Virus record (IMG/VR): IMGVR_UViG_3300049988_000124
Location: 64,001-128,000 of that record
Reading direction: 5' to 3' (one strand)
From: a virus
Taxonomy: Duplodnaviria; Caudoviricetes
DNA length: 64,000 nt
Shown: positions 7,232 to 11,477 of the stretch, one piece after another
Layout of the letters: every line of letters starts with the position of its first letter
How positions within the stretch are numbered: position 1 is the first letter of the stretch
The notes under the pieces: model-generated
Seen by the model: the letters and a program-made list of their open reading frames with translations, nothing else
Told to the model about the DNA's origin: nothing
Database searches by the model: none
Translations under genes and position numbers: made by a program

Positions 7232-8200
7232 TTAGTAGGGCATGTCTTCTTCGATCATGAGATCCTCGGTCTCAATGTCGGTTCCAGGATCACCGAAGAT
7301 TGCTACCCGCCTGGTGCGCATACCAATCTTTTCCTGACTAGCCAACCACACTTGCATGGCGGACAGTCGGTTGTTGTTGTGACCCTTGGGTTTGATCAAG
7401 ATAACGTCGTCGGCCATCTCGCACATCAAGTTACCCTGATGTAGATTAGCACCAATCCCGTTCTTGGCCTTGTTGGGTTTAACAACGAGGCAAGGCTTTC
7501 CTGTCTTGCGGTGAACGTAGGTGGCATCCTGATCCTTTAGAAAGTCAGTACCACCGATATACGCATCGACCCCTGGGTACCCACCAGAGATAATGCCGTC
7601 ATAGTCACTGAGTGACAAGCCCATCTTGACTTCGAGGGACTTCTCAATAGCCCAGTCAATCGCCTCCTGCTCTTTTTCCGTGAGACCATAATCGAGGGGA
7701 CCTGCGATCATGAGGTACTTGGAGCGAATGTCTGTCTTGTCCGGTGACATGGACAGGAAGATCGTGGCATCGAGATCACCTAGGAACTCGATCATCATCG
7801 GGTAAACCGTGTCGTAGGTCTGCTTCCCCAGACCACAACCGAGCATCGGCATACCAACGGCGGCGTAGCGATATTGATCTTGCAAGAGAACTTCACGCAA
7901 AGCAATAAGCCCGCGCTTGATATCTGCTTCCTCCGACTTGTTGACGTAGTGATCCTTGGTGGGAAAGTTAATAATCCCCCACGGCTGATCAGTGTCGGTG
8001 ATGATCTGAACCGTGCCGATGCGCAGTTCCTTACTGCGACACGCTGCCCGGTACACTTCGATGTGGTTGGGAGCCTTGTCCCTGAAGACGGCGGCGAGGC
8101 CTGCACCCGATACACCCCTGAGGTTAACCGGGTTGACCATGAAGTCCATGACTGATTCGAACTCGAACATGTCGTGAGTCACGCGGTGAATAAGCGGCAT
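7232..8200 (-). CDS. DarG/TARG1-type macrodomain fused to SLOG/YspA-like domain
   Basis: VNPVNLRGVSGAGLAAVF, IINFPTK, LGCGLG; C-terminal IISGGYPGVD. Confidence 0.8.
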   Translation of the reverse strand: MPLIHRVTHDMFEFESVMDFMVNPVNLRGVSGAGLAAVFRDKAPNHIEVYRAACRSKELRIGTVQIITDTDQPWGIINFPTKDHYVNKSEEADIKRGLIALREVLLQDQYRYAAVGMPMLGCGLGKQTYDTVYPMMIEFLGDLDATIFLSMSPDKTDIRSKYLMIAGPLDYGLTEKEQEAIDWAIEKSLEVKMGLSLSDYDGIISGGYPGVDAYIGGTDFLKDQDATYVHRKTGKPCLVVKPNKAKNGIGANLHQGNLMCEMADDVILIKPKGHNNNRLSAMQVWLASQEKIGMRTRRVAIFGDPGTDIETEDLMIEEDMPY

Positions 8201-8217
8201 AACACCTCCTAATTAGG

Positions 8218-8574
8218 TTACCCGAAGATGTCGGAAAACCCCGATTCATGAGTCGCGATGTGAATGATGGCATCCACTGGATCAGTCTCGCAACGAGAGA
8301 TCTCGTAATTACGAACACTAACGCCGCGCCGCTGATATTGAAACAAGACGTAATTAACAGCATCGTCAGAACGCTCACTGACTACCCGGTGAGTTTTAAC
8401 GTGACCTGGTTCGTACTGAGCATCGGTAATCGACTTTTTCTCTTCTTCCGATTTGTCTAGAAACATCCTTGACTGGAAAATATCTTCACGCTGATGACGC
8501 AGTCGCTCGAACGTGACATCGATGGTGTGAATAAACAAACGCTGTTTTGCCATGGTAGATACTCCATCACTCAT
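8218..8574 (-). CDS. Hypothetical protein
   Basis: 118 aa ORF in operon. Confidence 0.5.
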   Translation of the reverse strand: MSDGVSTMAKQRLFIHTIDVTFERLRHQREDIFQSRMFLDKSEEEKKSITDAQYEPGHVKTHRVVSERSDDAVNYVLFQYQRRGVSVRNYEISRCETDPVDAIIHIATHESGFSDIFG

Positions 8575-8603: not shown

Positions 8604-8633
8604 ATCAGAGGAAGGGTCGCCCCCTCCTCTGAT
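8604..8633. terminator. Intergenic hairpin
   Basis: atcagaggaaggg / cccctcctctgat, one mismatch. Confidence 0.55.
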
Positions 8634-8666: not shown

Positions 8667-9086
8667 TTACGCAGCTTGATCGAGTTCACGGGGATCATTA
8701 CCCCAGGCCTGGATGATGTCGATACTGGCCGCATCCAAGTAGTAACCTCGACCCCAAGATGTCAGCACTTCAAGACCGTAGTTCTTCATCTTCTTGCGAA
8801 GCTTGCAAACAAAGACGTCGACGATCTTTGGTTCCGGCTGATCTATCTGATCGTAGTAGAGGGCGTAGAAGAGACGCTCTCTAGTAACGACTCCGCCTTT
8901 GGCTACGTAAAGTGCGGCAACGATGCGAGCCTCTTGCGTAGTAAGCCCAATCTCAATAGGTGGTTCCCACTCAGGAGGACGAAGAGTAAGGCGAAGCTGA
9001 GTGATCTCTTCTTCTTTCTCACTGAGAAGAGCTTTCAGTTGTCTGATCTCCTCTCTCAGGAGAACAGGATCATCGACTTTAAGCAT
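8667..9086 (-). CDS. CtrA-like OmpR/PhoB winged-helix protein lacking receiver domain
   Basis: EPKIVDVFVCKLRKK...SWGRGYYL versus CtrA ELKIIDVFICKLRKK...VWGRGYVL; N-terminal coiled-coil-like heptads; start coupled to upstream stop. Confidence 0.8.
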   Translation of the reverse strand: MLKVDDPVLLREEIRQLKALLSEKEEEITQLRLTLRPPEWEPPIEIGLTTQEARIVAALYVAKGGVVTRERLFYALYYDQIDQPEPKIVDVFVCKLRKKMKNYGLEVLTSWGRGYYLDAASIDIIQAWGNDPRELDQAA

Positions 9087-9957
9087 GTTTGTTAATCTCC
9101 TGCTTAATGAATGATGCCAGGTGCCAGAACTGCGCTTCTCGCTGATTACCAGCTTCTCTGGCATGTGCCATCTTGGAGGCGACCTCCAGATCCTTTACCC
9201 CTCCCCGACCAACAGCATTGATGATCTGAAGGTCAACAGTTGCAGGCGCACCCTTTAGCGCTAGTGGACTGTTGGGCTTCAGGGTCAGCTCAGTCAGAGC
9301 CTTGATCCAGAGTTGCGAAACGCCAGGGAGACGGAGCTCTACGGCAAGGCTCATGATTCGCTGAACATAAGGACGACCACCTTGGCTGGCGAGCTCGAGA
9401 AGCGCACCAACGCAAATAGTCTCACCAACGCGCATGTCGCCGTAAGGCTTGGGACGCTTGATGACGGATGCTTCCGCGCGCTGACATCCCTCAACAACTT
9501 CAAGGGCATCCTCGTCCTTAGAGGCAACCATGGCCCAGAAGTTCTCCACCGGCGTCACTGACGTACGCTGATTGTTAAGCTTCACGAACGAGCTAGCACG
9601 GCTCTCCTTGGTCTCGCCGACCCGTCCGGGCCAACACCACAATTCACGAATGTGACCGTTGGTGAGCGCCGCAATCGAGGTGTGCTGACCATCTAGGATC
9701 TCGTAGAGAGGCAGACCTGTAGTCTCATCAGTCTCACCGATAGGCGAGACGACTGGCATGTGGAAAAGTTCCCAATCGAATTCAAGCGCAATCTTGGAGG
9801 CAAGTCTGGAACTGTCGCGACTGAGCTGTCGCTGATATTCATCGTTGATTCGAAGCTGACTAGTTTTCAGGAGGATAGGGGAGGGAGTGGGACCAGGATC
9901 GCGCTTCTCCTTACCCTTGGGAAGGATGAGTGCACGAAGTCTGCGTAGCTGAGTCAT
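9079..9957 (-). CDS. ParB/Srx-like domain protein (DUF6551-like)
   Basis: LRINDEYQR...PVVS...EILDGQHT. Confidence 0.7.
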   Translation of the reverse strand: MTQLRRLRALILPKGKEKRDPGPTPSPILLKTSQLRINDEYQRQLSRDSSRLASKIALEFDWELFHMPVVSPIGETDETTGLPLYEILDGQHTSIAALTNGHIRELWCWPGRVGETKESRASSFVKLNNQRTSVTPVENFWAMVASKDEDALEVVEGCQRAEASVIKRPKPYGDMRVGETICVGALLELASQGGRPYVQRIMSLAVELRLPGVSQLWIKALTELTLKPNSPLALKGAPATVDLQIINAVGRGGVKDLEVASKMAHAREAGNQREAQFWHLASFIKQEINKHA

Positions 9958-10030
9958 GGGCACACATCCTTTCATTCGTGTGAGTGCGTCTATAACAAGA
10001 TTGTTTAAAAGGTTGTAATCTTCTCTGAGT

Positions 10031-10071
10031 AGGAGTGGTACACCTTAGGTTAAGTAAAGTGTACCACTCCT
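10031..10071. terminator. Hairpin downstream of mucR
   Basis: aggagtggtacac ... gtgtaccactcct 13-bp arms. Confidence 0.65.
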
Positions 10072-10076
10072 GGTAA

Positions 10077-10520
10077 TTACTTCTTCTTGGTGATCTTCTG
10101 ACCAGCCTTACGACCCAGGCCCATCTTCTTGGCAGTCTCACTGCGCTGCTTCGAATACGAGGGAGCGACCACCGGATAGTCATCCTTCAGTCCGTAGCGA
10201 GCCCGGTACTCCGCTGCGGTCAGACCGTGACCGGTGAGATGTCGCTTCAACGTACGGTAGGGTTTCCCGTCGATCATGGAGATGATGTAGTCGGGCAGCT
10301 TGGCGAGTGACTGACGCACCGTGACTGCCTTGGTGAACGTCTCCGGTGCTTCCTTGGCAACAGACACGCCTCCGTTACCGATTTGCTGAAGCGTAGTGTC
10401 GATGCTCGTGAGAAGAATAACAGCGTCCTCGGCGGTAGCCTTATTCGATGGGTTCTCGAGGAACGCGGCCGTAATCACTGCTGCTACATTGACACGGTGT
10501 GCAGCGTTAATGGGGAGCAT
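10077..10520 (-). CDS. mucR: MucR/Ros family transcriptional regulator (Cys-free type)
   Basis: YIISMIDGKPYRTLKRHL...YRARYGLKDDYPVVAPSYSKQRSETAKKMGLGRK; GGAGG RBS. Confidence 0.92.
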   Translation of the reverse strand: MLPINAAHRVNVAAVITAAFLENPSNKATAEDAVILLTSIDTTLQQIGNGGVSVAKEAPETFTKAVTVRQSLAKLPDYIISMIDGKPYRTLKRHLTGHGLTAAEYRARYGLKDDYPVVAPSYSKQRSETAKKMGLGRKAGQKITKKK

Positions 10521-10586
10521 AAGAACCTCCTATTGGGTTGTGGAAAACAACAAGGAACAAGGGCACATAGCAACCTGTCCAAGGTA

Positions 10587-10611
10587 GTAATATAAAGGTT
10601 GACTAGCGATG
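10587..10611 (-). promoter_or_regulatory. Putative early promoter CATC-N13-TATATTAC upstream of mucR
   Basis: Matches phiKZ early core; near-identical copy at 47521. Confidence 0.6.
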
Positions 10612-10633: not shown

Positions 10634-10642
10634 TATGACCCC
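10634..10642 (+). promoter_or_regulatory. Putative late promoter (TATGACCCC)
   Basis: 23 nt before virion gene ATG. Confidence 0.45.
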
Positions 10643-10664
10643 TCAAGTTTTATCAAGGTGTACC

Positions 10665-11477
10665 ATGCCACAACCCGCTATGTCCTACGTACTCTCCCAC
10701 GTTATGCAGAACATTCCTCGCCAGCTCCTCGACCTGGCATTTCGCCCTCGCCAGTTCAACACCACTATTGAACAGCGCATCATCTCTGAGGTAGTTGAGG
10801 GACCCGTCCTTCTCGACCTTAACCTGGTCGGTGGTAAGCAGCGCACCATCATCATGAACTCCCAGTGGCAGATGCCGCTCGATCACGTGGAATCATTCGG
10901 GCTAATCGGTGTTGGTATGGAAGCGACCTTCTACGCCATTCCGCCTGAAGCACGCGAGTATCGCAACATCTCTTCTGTATTGGGGGTGAGTGCATTTGCT
11001 GGTGGCGCTGGTTACGGTGCTGGCGCTAACATGAATGGTCAGGATTTCGGTAACACTGCTACCTCACTCCTCAGTGAGATGCTGGGAACTCATACTGGTC
11101 GCAACAACGCGATCATGCCCCAGATGTCGCTGGAGGGATCGAACATCATTCGCTTCTATCCAGAGCTCATCACCGATGGTCTGGCGATCCGTGTCATGTT
11201 GGAACAGGACTCAGAGTTCCTCAACATGAACACCTCAGCGATCTTCGCGCTGCGAAATTTCTGCCTGTGTGCCACCATGCGCTACGTGGTCAACAACCTC
11301 ATCGTTCCGGTTGATGAGACCGAAGTTGTCGCTGGTATGGAGATCGGGGTAATCAAGACGCTGATCATGGAGTATAAGCAGGAAGTCGAGAAGTACAACG
11401 AACTCCTTGTCAAGCTGAAAGGTGCTATGCACTTTGATCAGCAGACCATTGGTCGCATGATGTATTTTGCACTATAA
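10665..11477 (+). CDS. phiKZ-like conserved virion structural protein
   Basis: NIPRQLLDLAF...TIEQRIISEVVEGPVLLDLNLVGG resembles a conserved phiKZ-family gene; start after AAGGTG. Confidence 0.55.
   Translation: MPQPAMSYVLSHVMQNIPRQLLDLAFRPRQFNTTIEQRIISEVVEGPVLLDLNLVGGKQRTIIMNSQWQMPLDHVESFGLIGVGMEATFYAIPPEAREYRNISSVLGVSAFAGGAGYGAGANMNGQDFGNTATSLLSEMLGTHTGRNNAIMPQMSLEGSNIIRFYPELITDGLAIRVMLEQDSEFLNMNTSAIFALRNFCLCATMRYVVNNLIVPVDETEVVAGMEIGVIKTLIMEYKQEVEKYNELLVKLKGAMHFDQQTIGRMMYFAL

What the first reader, a model, noticed from the sequence alone, without database searches (positions are those of the whole stretch)
8667..10611. Phage cluster of cell-cycle regulator mimics: MucR, ParB-like, receiver-less CtrA
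Three consecutive minus-strand genes behind a candidate early promoter. Established: in Caulobacter and rhizobia CtrA activates G1/pilus/flagellar genes and blocks replication initiation, MucR represses CtrA targets and silences AT-rich foreign DNA, and ParB drives segregation. Inference: a dedicated early module that resets host cell-cycle state, or surface receptor and capsule expression, or relieves xenogeneic silencing. Each family occurs in phages singly; the contiguous triad in a phiKZ-like phage is the notable part. A hairpin after mucR may tune the downstream genes.
Basis: partly seen in the sequence, partly recalled or inferred. Interest (0 to 1): 0.75.

Follow-up and report, generated by a model that had tools for sequence, protein, structure and literature searches.

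The report
Phage CtrA mimic paired with ParB-like protein
A giant leaf-dwelling phage carries copies of two bacterial master regulators (MucR and the DNA-binding half of CtrA), but only the CtrA-like gene and its ParB-like neighbour form a widely conserved, uncharacterised phage module; MucR is a local add-on.

Summary
The three minus-strand genes are real. They are a MucR/Ros protein (10077-10520), a 292-aa ParB/Srx-fold protein of family DUF6551 (9079-9957), and a 139-aa receiver-less protein (8667-9086) whose recognition helix is almost identical to CtrA's. A phiKZ-type TATATTAC promoter motif (10587-10594) lies upstream of mucR, and a strong hairpin (10031-10071) follows it.

The triad is not a conserved module. 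All relatives of this phage at about 60% identity keep the overlapping ParB-like + CtrA-like pair behind the same promoter motif, and none has mucR. None of more than 100 related loci has MucR nearby.

The pair is the real unit. It is linked in 62 of 86 non-redundant (pro)phage lineages of Alphaproteobacteria. It occurs in both gene orders and at least once as a single fused ORF (L075).

My reading is that a leucine-zipper helix replaces the receiver domain. This would give a phosphorylation-independent CtrA-box binder that acts on host DNA together with the ParB-like partner. MucR, of the cysteine-less sphingomonad type, is a lineage-specific early gene in a variable slot.

The mechanism is inferred, not shown. 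This scan had already noted the same pair in a Methylobacterium prophage.

The parts
10587..10594 (-). TATATTAC core of a phage-specific (phiKZ-type, presumed early) promoter, 67 nt upstream of the mucR ATG
   Evidence: There are 24 copies in the genome against 7.2 expected, all on the minus strand, with extended consensus cgaTATATTACynnnrTGA. The same motif and shape occur 7 times, all on the coding strand and intergenic, in the first 50 kb of phiKZ. The motif stands upstream of the ParB-like gene in relatives L014 and L015.
10077..10520 (-). mucR: MucR/Ros family protein, 147 aa, cysteine-less (ISMIDG in place of CxxC) sphingomonad type
   Evidence: Pfam PF05443, 112 bits. It is 50-59% identical to Sphingomonas and Novosphingobium MucR paralogues that share the Ser/Asp replacements. 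It is absent from this slot in all relatives.
10031..10071 (-). RNA hairpin starting 6 nt after the mucR stop (17-bp stem, 7-nt loop, no U-tract)
   Evidence: strand folding gives -30.8 kcal/mol, z -4.42, with 0 of 200 shuffles as stable. It has no counterpart in the intergenic regions of relatives that lack mucR.
9079..9957 (-). DUF6551-type ParB/Srx-fold protein, 292 aa (alternative upstream ATG at 9975), motifs LRINDEYQR, DGQHT and LNNQR
8667..9086 (-). Receiver-less CtrA-type winged-helix protein, 139 aa: N-terminal heptad-repeat helix (residues 7-35) followed by the wHTH (recognition helix 88-101). Its start overlaps the ParB-like stop by 8 nt.
   Evidence: The model has pLDDT 82.
8605..8632 (-). 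GC-rich hairpin (TCAGAGGAGGGG-GCGA-CCCTTCCTCTGA) after the CtrA-like gene, terminator-like
   Evidence: Read from the sequence; the terminator scan is. Similar GAGGGAGG-type hairpins precede many TATATTAC promoters elsewhere in the genome.
8218..8574 (-). 118-aa ORF of unknown family, next gene in the same direction
   Evidence: No Pfam, PHROG or PADLOC match.
7232..8200 (-). DarG-like macrodomain protein (322 aa). It is a conserved downstream neighbour of the pair in relatives and probably lies in the same leftward early transcription unit.
   Evidence: NCBIfam antitoxin DarG E 1.3e-30; PADLOC DarG E 4e-32. A Macro gene of 329-336 aa follows the pair in L002 and L013.
10635..11477 (+). Divergent DUF7484 gene. 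Its conserved start region (ATCGTATGA) and the TATATTAC motif define the intergenic region into which mucR is inserted.
   Evidence: Pfam DUF7484 E 2e-33. It is the conserved divergent neighbour in L002, L003, L005, L014 and L015. Alignment A5.

Best explanation
The window comes from a 308-kb phiKZ-like jumbo phage of the phyllosphere. Its host is probably a sphingomonad.

A phage-polymerase-type promoter (TATATTAC, presumed early) drives a leftward accessory operon: mucR, hairpin, DUF6551 ParB-like gene, CtrA-type wHTH gene, orf118, DarG-like macrodomain gene.

The ancient functional unit is the translationally coupled pair of ParB-like and CtrA-DBD genes. MucR was inserted later, between the promoter and the pair, in a slot that is empty or holds another small ORF in relatives.

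Proposed mechanism (inferred):
- The CtrA-like protein keeps CtrA's DNA-recognition helix.
- It has replaced the receiver domain and the N-terminal beta-platform with a leucine-zipper-like helix.
- It would therefore dimerise constitutively and occupy CtrA boxes (TTAA-N7-TTAA) without the CckA-ChpT phosphorelay.
- The phage genome has no such box and the phage brings its own RNA polymerases, so the targets are on the host chromosome: the origin and the CtrA regulon (flagellum, pili, division).
- The DUF6551 partner is recruited there and adds a ParB-fold activity, either an NTP-dependent switch or clamp or some other DNA-directed activity.
- The phage MucR independently adds an H-NS-like silencer of the host's own type. 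It would either reinforce silencing of AT-rich host islands or co-oligomerise with host MucR.

What is shown: gene identities, linkage statistics, the promoter motif, the absence of CtrA boxes, and the insertion of mucR.
What is inferred: DNA specificity, dimerisation, physical interaction of the pair, host targets and timing.
For: Gene identities.

Recognition helix: KIVDVFVCKLRKKM against CtrA KIIDVFVCKLRKKM, and the WGRGY wing is conserved.

N-terminal helix: it spans residues 7-35 in the model and the OmpR-type N-terminal beta-sheet is missing. The heptad pattern is conserved in relatives.

Pair linkage:
- 59 of 87 loci have a same-strand ParB-like ORF within 60 nt of the wHTH gene, and 10 more have one within about 400 nt.
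- 62 of 86 clusters at 90% identity are linked, in both orders.
- L075 is one open frame with ParB-like residues 8-225 and Trans_reg_C residues 292-359.
- The pair lies in the early accessory region of a Mu-like prophage of Cohaesibacter.
- DUF6551 is elsewhere fused to other DNA-binding domains: HTH_3 and DnaA_C.

mucR is an insertion:
- Relatives have the promoter motif followed by the ParB-like gene.
- The window has the promoter motif, mucR and the hairpin, and then a 5'UTR that aligns with that of L015.
- No locus of the census has MucR.

Host-directed action: TTAA-N7-TTAA occurs 0 times in 308 kb (1.2 expected), and the genome carries phage RNAP genes.

Host clue: the nearest MucR homologues are from Sphingomonas and Novosphingobium and share the Cys-less motif. 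The phage occurs in leaf and phyllosphere metagenomes of several studies.

NTP binding: phage ParB-fold + DUF6551 proteins bound CTP or ATP in vitro (preprint 10.1101/2025.10.10.680097).
Against: - There are no expression data. No RNA run is available, so 'early' rests on the motif's likeness to phiKZ.
- The hairpin after mucR could terminate transcription, and no second TATATTAC lies before the ParB-like gene. Co-transcription is therefore unproven.
- The paired ParB-like subfamily has DGQHT in place of the GxxR P-motif (59 of 79 proteins). The arginine-to-alanine mutants were the non-binding controls in the preprint, so NTP binding may be lost.
- Binding between the two proteins was not tested.
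- About a quarter of the receiver-less CtrA-like genes have no ParB-like neighbour. Annotated examples are RDJL Phi 1, RcGingersnap and vB_PmaS-R3.
- The phage nucleus is not confirmed: the chimallin candidate has no Pfam or PHROG hit.
- The host is not identified directly.
Confidence: 0.55

Rival explanations
1. One reading: the three genes are one dedicated, co-evolved early module that resets the host cell-cycle state. MucR, ParB and CtrA mimics would act together on the CtrA/MucR/ParB network.
For: The three genes lie in one orientation behind one promoter motif. In Caulobacter, MucR and CtrA regulate overlapping G1 promoters (PMC4083442, listed). The arrangement is stable in at least three leaf-metagenome studies.
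Against: mucR is missing from every relative that keeps the pair and from all of the more than 100 CtrA-like loci. The slot holds nothing, or in one relative an unrelated 109-aa ORF. The ParB-like protein lacks the features of a partition ParB. A strong hairpin separates mucR from the pair.
Confidence: 0.1
2. The pair works on the phage's own DNA. It could be a phage regulator, replication or partition factor, or a lysis-lysogeny switch. Its wHTH would descend from CtrA but now read phage sites, or it would replace host CtrA at phage promoters that carry CtrA boxes in temperate phages.
For: Host CtrA binds and regulates promoters of several alphaproteobacterial phages (PMC9437464; Jorvik, PMC10589892). 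Most carriers of the pair are prophage-like contigs of 20-70 kb, including a Mu-like prophage. ParB-fold proteins with a DNA-binding partner regulate their own element, as KorB-KorA do (structures hit).
Against: This jumbo phage has no full CtrA box and only scattered half-sites, mostly inside ORFs or at start codons. It transcribes from its own promoter classes. The recognition helix is under CtrA-like conservation, which argues against a change of specificity.
Confidence: 0.2
3. The pair is a counter-defence or DNA-modification-related unit. The DUF6551 protein, a DndB/GmrSD-N-like branch of the ParB/Srx fold, would be the effector, and the wHTH would merely target or regulate it. It sits in an anti-defence island beside a DarG-like macrodomain.
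For: A DarG-like gene is conserved just downstream. There is a weak GmrSD_N similarity in the Mu-like homologue. In L006 the pair follows an 845-aa SMC/AAA-like protein with weak PADLOC hits. The preprint suggests anti-defence roles for phage ParB-fold fusions.
Against: Neither protein of the pair has a PADLOC hit. No nuclease or methyltransferase domain was detected. This reading does not explain why the DNA-binding partner is specifically a CtrA-derived domain confined to Alphaproteobacteria.
Confidence: 0.15

Closest known systems
CtrA (alphaproteobacterial OmpR-family cell-cycle response regulator; NCBIfam NF045991)
   Same: The wHTH is 44-50% identical. The recognition helix and wing are almost identical (KI[VI]DVF[VI]CKLRKK, WGRGY). 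All named full-length hits are CtrA.
   Different: There is no receiver domain and no Asp51. The N-terminal beta-sheet of the DNA-binding domain is replaced by a 29-residue heptad-repeat helix. The loop before the wing is shorter. The protein is 139 aa against about 235 aa.
Receiver-less 'CtrA'/'CzcR-like' genes annotated in alphaproteobacterial siphophages (Roseobacter phage RDJL Phi 1 gp37, Paracoccus phage vB_PmaS-R3, Rhodobacter phage RcGingersnap gp59)
   Same: They have the same kind of truncated CtrA DNA-binding domain, 38-47% identical.
   Different: Those records show no ParB-like neighbour. RDJL gp38 is unrelated (annotations). They are 40-70-kb siphophages, not a phiKZ-like jumbo phage. 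No function has been published for them in the library I could search.
DUF6551 (PF20188), a mostly viral branch of the ParB-CTPase / sulfiredoxin fold
   Same: The fold and motifs match (xQR, DGQH, LNxQR). hhalign gives 98.3% to a Pfam-positive member. The nearest ESM Atlas clusters are DUF6551. Two phage members bound CTP or ATP in vitro.
   Different: The Pfam score is below the cut-off (16.7 against 26.8 bits). The P-motif arginine is replaced by threonine in the paired subfamily.
ParB-family regulators that work with or as DNA-binding specificity modules (KorB-KorA of RK2, Noc, VirB)
   Same: These are the top structural matches. The logic is similar: a ParB-fold protein acts at specific sites together with a small DNA-binding protein, for regulation rather than segregation.
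   Different: There is no sequence-level ParB_N match. The GERR/GxxR motif is not kept. No HTH_ParB or parS was identified. The partner is a CtrA-type wHTH. Clamp or CTPase behaviour is untested.
MucR/Ros (H-NS-like silencer of Alphaproteobacteria) and phage-borne MucR (Erythrobacter phage vB_EliS_R6L gp61, Mesorhizobium phage Cp1R7A-A1)
   Same: It is a full-length PF05443 protein in which both the N-terminal and the DNA-binding parts are conserved. Phage-borne copies are already known (review PMC7710501).
   Different: Both zinc-binding cysteines are replaced (Ser, Asp), as in a sphingomonad paralogue group. It is only 40-45% identical to the other phage MucRs, so it was acquired independently. 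This is the first case I found in a phiKZ-like genome.

Membership tests
MucR/Ros (PF05443) | Full-length match to the family profile above the curated cut-off | tested here: met
   112.4 bits against 25.4; profile positions 3-123 of 123. Also found by the six-frame search of the genome.
MucR/Ros (PF05443) | Cys2His2 zinc-binding site of the Ros DNA-binding domain | tested here: not met
   The protein has ISMIDGKPYRTLKRHLTGHG. Both Cys positions are Ser and Asp. The same replacement occurs in Sphingomonas and Novosphingobium homologues. Zinc-free Ros homologues that still bind DNA are known (my own knowledge: Baglivo et al. 2009), so this does not exclude function.
MucR/Ros (PF05443) | N-terminal oligomerisation region | tested here: inconclusive
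   The N-terminal 60 residues align with conserved positions (A13, T17, A19, L21, N23). Oligomerisation itself cannot be tested here.
CtrA | OmpR-type winged helix (Trans_reg_C) with the CtrA-type recognition helix | tested here: met
   PF00486 scores 48.5 bits against 26.2. CtrA is the best NCBIfam model by about 24 bits. 13 of 14 recognition-helix residues are identical to CtrA.
CtrA | Receiver domain with the phospho-accepting aspartate; full-length equivalog score | tested here: not met
   No Response_reg match; the protein is 139 aa. NF045991 scores 56.7 bits against a cut-off of 350. The N-terminus is a single helix. It is therefore not a CtrA orthologue but a CtrA-derived DNA-binding protein.
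CtrA | Binding to TTAA-N7-TTAA | not testable with these tools
   Only indirect evidence is available: the recognition helix is conserved, and there are no such sites in the phage genome.
ParB (partition / CTPase clamp) | ParB/Srx N-terminal fold | tested here: met
   Ranks 1-31 of the Foldseek PDB search are all ParB, KorB, Noc or Spo0J chains (probability 0.8-1.0 but TM only 0.2-0.4). AFDB clusters are named ParB/Sulfiredoxin.
ParB (partition / CTPase clamp) | P-motif GxxR (GERR) for triphosphate binding | tested here: not met
   DGQHT is invariant in the 11 closest homologues and in 59 of 79 paired homologues. DGQHR is present in 11 others.
ParB (partition / CTPase clamp) | Sequence match to ParB_N, and a ParA partner or parS | tested here: not met
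   The genome has no PF02195 match. No ParA stood beside the gene in the Pfam lists of the tabulated loci; no direct ParA or parS search was run.
DUF6551 (PF20188) | Match to the family profile | tested here: inconclusive
   The direct Pfam score is 16.7 bits, below 26.8. Profile-profile comparison gives 98.3% to L017 DUF6551, which itself scores 47 bits. Paired homologues L103 and L017 pass the cut-off. Atlas feature score is 0.97 and structure TM 0.84 to DUF6551 clusters. I file it as a divergent member.
phiKZ-like jumbo phages (Chimalliviridae) | Two multisubunit RNAP sets, PhuZ tubulin, chimallin shell, TATATTAC-type promoters | tested here: inconclusive
   There are RNAP-beta-like matches in two ORFs, a phrog_2987 RNAP beta subunit, a tubulin match below the cut-off, and a promoter motif shared with phiKZ. 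The chimallin candidate has no Pfam or PHROG hit. No Rpb1_2 match was found.

The most novel reading that the evidence does not exclude
The DUF6551 + CtrA-DBD pair is a 'split ParB'. The constitutively dimeric CtrA mimic would serve as the loading or specificity module at the host's CtrA boxes. The ParB-fold partner would then switch, spread or bridge DNA from those sites. Phages of Alphaproteobacteria, from Mu-like prophages to a phiKZ-like jumbo phage, would thereby shut the host origin and rewire the CtrA regulon (receptors, division) independently of the phosphorelay. This would be a new class of phage take-over device aimed at a master regulator's binding sites.
Probability: 0.15. Interest if true: 0.85.

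Novelty: new variant of a known kind. Interest (0 to 1): 0.55.

Why it matters
CtrA controls replication, division, and flagellum and pilus synthesis across Alphaproteobacteria. Several of their phages depend on it. A phage-encoded, phosphorylation-independent CtrA look-alike would be a direct way to override the host cell cycle or to change receptor display.

The census shows that this look-alike almost always travels with an uncharacterised ParB-fold protein, in hundreds of viral contigs and in at least one fused form. This defines a testable two-protein module for which I found no published function. Cultivable carriers exist (prophages of Methylobacterium, Shinella, Stappia).

The module also gives a biological context to DUF6551, a ParB-CTPase-fold family recently shown to bind CTP or ATP.

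The finding adds an alphaproteobacterial, phyllosphere member to the phiKZ-like phages. It shows that such phages pick up host nucleoid regulators (MucR) as exchangeable early genes.

Tried and rejected
- Expression: no RNA holder was listed for the stretch. All runs laid were DNA contigs, so timing and co-transcription could not be examined.
- Single-sequence scans of viral contigs with the ParB-like and wHTH proteins found nothing. Alignments were needed.
- blastn of the region against GenBank phages gave only a 180-nt mucR-like match.
- A profile search of A2 against PDB sequences found no relative. Only the fold search worked.
- PADLOC gave no hit for MucR, the ParB-like protein or the wHTH.
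- CtrA boxes: TTAA-N7-TTAA is absent. The half-site TTAACCAT occurs 12 times against 6.5 +/- 1.9, but the copies are mostly inside ORFs or are ATG-GTT start codons. I rejected this as a signal.
- The conserved intergenic element TCATACGAT looked like an operator. It is the start-codon region of the divergent DUF7484 gene (and the ORF).
- RDJL Phi 1 gp38, upstream of its ctrA-like gene, is not ParB-like.
- Chimallin: the 589-aa ORF next to the RNAP beta gene has no Pfam or PHROG match.
- GcrA, a second Trans_reg_C and ParB_N: none elsewhere in the genome.
- Literature: the text search for TATATTAC was uninformative. Ceyssens et al. 2014 is not held, so I checked the motif directly on phiKZ DNA.
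It was repeated with A7.
Full report
**What is there**

The window is bases 64001-128000 of a 307,821-bp IMG/VR virus record. Between 8667 and 10611 there are three consecutive minus-strand genes.

- **mucR**, 10077-10520, 147 aa. Pfam ROS_MUCR E 1.7e-32, 112 bits.
- **A ParB-like gene.** The ORF is 9079-9975. The database gene call and all homologues start at MTQLRRL, which is 9957 and gives 292 aa.
- **A winged-helix gene.** The ORF is 8667-9164. The alignment with relatives shows that the real start is Met27 at 9086, giving 139 aa. Its ATG overlaps the ParB-like stop in ATGCTTAA.

**The CtrA-like protein**

It matches Trans_reg_C (E 1e-12). Among NCBIfam models, CtrA scores 56.7 bits and the next model, PhoB, scores 32. 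In the 5.8-billion-protein search, every named full-length hit is annotated as CtrA, at 44-50% identity over the DNA-binding domain.

In alignment A4 the recognition helix reads PKIVDVFVCKLRKKM against PKIIDVFVCKLRKKM in CtrA, and the wing motif WGRGY is kept.

The AlphaFold model (pLDDT 82) shows:
- one long helix (residues 7-35) with a 3-4 hydrophobic repeat;
- then helices at 50-61 and 69-77;
- the recognition helix at 88-101;
- and the wing at 107-117.

The four-stranded N-terminal sheet of OmpR-type domains and the receiver domain are both absent. The protein is therefore a CtrA-derived DNA binder that cannot be phosphorylated. Constitutive dimerisation through a zipper is my inference.

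**The ParB-like protein**

By sequence it gives only a sub-threshold DUF6551 hit. Other evidence places it in that family:
- The model (pLDDT 81) matches pNOB8 ParB, KorB, Noc, Spo0J and ParB chains at all top PDB ranks. Probabilities are near 1 but TM scores are low, because the domains are arranged differently.
- It matches ParB/Sulfiredoxin clusters in AFDB.
- Profile-profile comparison with a Pfam-positive DUF6551 protein gives 98.3%.
- The ESM Atlas places it among DUF6551 clusters, which are mostly viral.

It is not a partition ParB. The genome has no ParB_N match, and I saw no ParA next to it in any locus, though I ran no direct ParA search. The P-motif GxxR is DGQHT.

A 2025 preprint showed that phage ParB-fold + DUF6551 proteins bind CTP or ATP. 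It used arginine-to-alanine mutants of GxxR as non-binding controls. Nucleotide binding in this threonine-bearing subfamily is therefore open.

**The triad is not conserved; the pair is**

Relatives of the ParB-like protein at about 60% identity lie on Logan contigs that are syntenic with the window. Their order is Rv2179c-like, small ORFs, DUF7484 (divergent), ParB-like, overlapping Trans_reg_C, then a macrodomain gene.
- None has mucR.
- One relative has an unrelated 109-aa ORF in that place.
- A 42%-identical relative keeps the pair behind an 845-aa SMC-like gene.

The DNA alignment of the intergenic regions shows that relatives carry the DUF7484 start region and the TATATTAC motif directly upstream of the ParB-like gene. 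In the window, the same two elements lie upstream of mucR. The stretch between the hairpin and the ParB-like ATG aligns with the 5' leader of L015. So mucR plus its hairpin sits between an existing promoter and the pair.

I then ran a census.
- An alignment-based scan of IMG/VR found 236 contigs that encode a receiver-less CtrA-type wHTH.
- Of the 87 loci held, 59 have a same-strand ParB-like ORF within 60 nt, and 10 more have one within about 400 nt.
- After clustering at 90% identity, and using only the unexpanded A2 and A6 profiles, 62 of 86 lineages are linked. The orders are ParB-like then wHTH (52), wHTH then ParB-like (8), or both domains in one ORF (2, of which only L075 is unambiguous; the second, L031, is ambiguous).
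- L075 is one open frame with the ParB-like part at residues 8-225 and Trans_reg_C at 292-359.
- A Mu-like prophage in a Cohaesibacter genome has wHTH followed by DUF6551, between the transposition genes and gemA.
- Bacterial genomes with the pair are Shinella, Stappia and Mycoplana. Other wHTH hits come from Methylobacterium, Pleomorphomonas and Phenylobacterium.
- No locus contains a MucR gene.

The pair is not universal. RDJL Phi 1, RcGingersnap and vB_PmaS-R3 have the CtrA-like gene without an annotated ParB-like neighbour.

My census is independent of it.

**MucR**

Its closest named homologues (50-59% identity) are Sphingomonas and Novosphingobium proteins. They share with it the replacement of both zinc-binding cysteines (ISMIDG for CxxC) and a variable second histidine.

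Phage-borne MucR is already known: Erythrobacter phage R6L gp61, Mesorhizobium phage Cp1R7A-A1, and the review PMC7710501. Those are only 40-45% identical to this one, so the acquisition here was independent.

The phage is present in leaf and phyllosphere metagenomes.
- One independent contig is identical over 8706-10446.
- A ~95% variant bridges the mucR/ParB-like junction.

The arrangement is therefore real and stable within this phage species. Together with the MucR type, this points to a sphingomonad host. That is an inference.

**Promoter and hairpins**

TATATTAC occurs 24 times in the genome against 7 expected. All copies are on the minus strand, with the consensus cgaTATATTACynnnrTGA, and they are often preceded by a GC-rich hairpin. 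One copy is at 10594-10587.

The first 50 kb of phiKZ hold 7 copies. All are on the coding strand and intergenic, and most show the same TATATTAC-N5-TGA shape. One lies 80 nt upstream of gp54.

phiKZ early promoters are described as AT-rich elements read by the virion RNA polymerase (PMC10914365). That their core reads TATATTAC is my recollection of Ceyssens et al. 2014, which I could not open.

The genome has two RNAP-beta-like ORFs, a phrog_2987 RNAP beta subunit and a tubulin-like ORF. 'phiKZ-like' is therefore reasonable. A chimallin was not confirmed.

The hairpin after mucR (10031-10071) is strong (-30.8 kcal/mol, z -4.4) and has no U-tract. A second hairpin (8605-8632) follows the CtrA-like gene. 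Whether the first one attenuates, terminates or stabilises the transcript cannot be told without RNA data.

**How it most likely works**

Shown:
- a CtrA-type recognition helix without a receiver;
- tight, ancient linkage, and occasional fusion, to a ParB-fold protein;
- no full CtrA box in 308 kb of phage DNA (0 against 1.2 expected);
- phage-own promoters and polymerases.

Inferred:
- The protein binds host CtrA boxes as a constitutive dimer.
- The ParB-fold partner acts with it at those sites.
- The consequence would be interference with replication initiation and with the CtrA regulon, including flagella and pili. These are receptors for many alphaproteobacterial phages (PMC9437464).
- MucR would be an exchangeable extra. 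As a copy of the host's H-NS-like silencer made early, it could reinforce silencing of AT-rich host islands, as was proposed for phage-encoded H-NS (Skennerton et al. 2011, cited in PMC7710501). Alternatively it could poison host MucR oligomers.

**Verdict**

The 'triad' interpretation fails its own synteny test. What remains is a widespread, uncharacterised two-gene module, DUF6551 plus CtrA-DBD, seen here for the first time in a phiKZ-like phage behind a phiKZ-type promoter, with MucR as a lineage-specific addition.

- Novelty: a new variant of a known kind (phage-borne host-regulator mimics).
- Interest: moderate (0.55). It would be higher if the split-ParB reading holds.

Noticed in passing
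window 7232-8200 (-): This 322-aa protein has an N-terminal DarG-like macrodomain (NCBIfam antitoxin DarG E 1.3e-30; PADLOC DarG E 4e-32) and an unassigned C-terminal half. A 329-336-aa homologue follows the ParB-like/CtrA-like pair in relatives L002 and L013. It may be an early counter-defence gene against DarT-type DNA ADP-ribosylation.
   Followed up: partly
whole genome G000; window copies at 10594, 25852, 47528: There are 24 copies of TATATTAC, and 24 of the 25 TATATTA heptamers in the genome are part of it. All are on the minus strand, with consensus cgaTATATTACynnnrTGA, and many follow a GAGGGAGG-type hairpin. The same motif shape occurs in phiKZ intergenic regions. This is a ready-made map of one promoter class of this phage.
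   Followed up: partly
L006:5346-7883 (+): In a 42%-identical relative, the pair is preceded by an 845-aa SMC_N/AAA-like protein with weak PADLOC hits (mad3, mad8, HEC-02A, PtuA). This suggests the pair can sit beside ATPase-type genes in other phages.
   Followed up: no
L075:1-1149 (+): This is a natural fusion in one ORF, truncated at the contig start: the ParB-like part at residues 8-225 and Trans_reg_C at 292-359. It is a Rosetta-stone argument that the two proteins act together.
   Followed up: partly
L072:3260-4318 and L069:3227-4288: These 352-353-aa proteins carry the CtrA-type wHTH at the C-terminus. Their 230-residue N-terminal part has no Pfam match and no ParB-like profile match. 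This is another architecture in which the CtrA DNA-binding domain is attached to something unknown.
   Followed up: no
window 10635-11477 (+): The DUF7484 gene is the constant divergent neighbour of the pair's promoter in all jumbo-phage relatives. The listed TTG start at 10599 is probably wrong, because the conserved ATCGTATGA start region points to Met13.
   Followed up: partly
G000:C1:12186-13955 (-), outside the window: A 589-aa ORF lies next to an RNAP beta-subunit gene (phrog_2987), in the position where another reader expected chimallin. It has no Pfam or PHROG match, so the nuclear-shell protein of this phage is either very divergent or absent.
   Followed up: partly
window 10234-10292: In leaf metagenomes many short contigs from other organisms match only this conserved part of mucR, with 4-7 mismatches in about 40 nt. 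These reflect bacterial MucR genes of the same Cys-less type in the same habitat.
   Followed up: no
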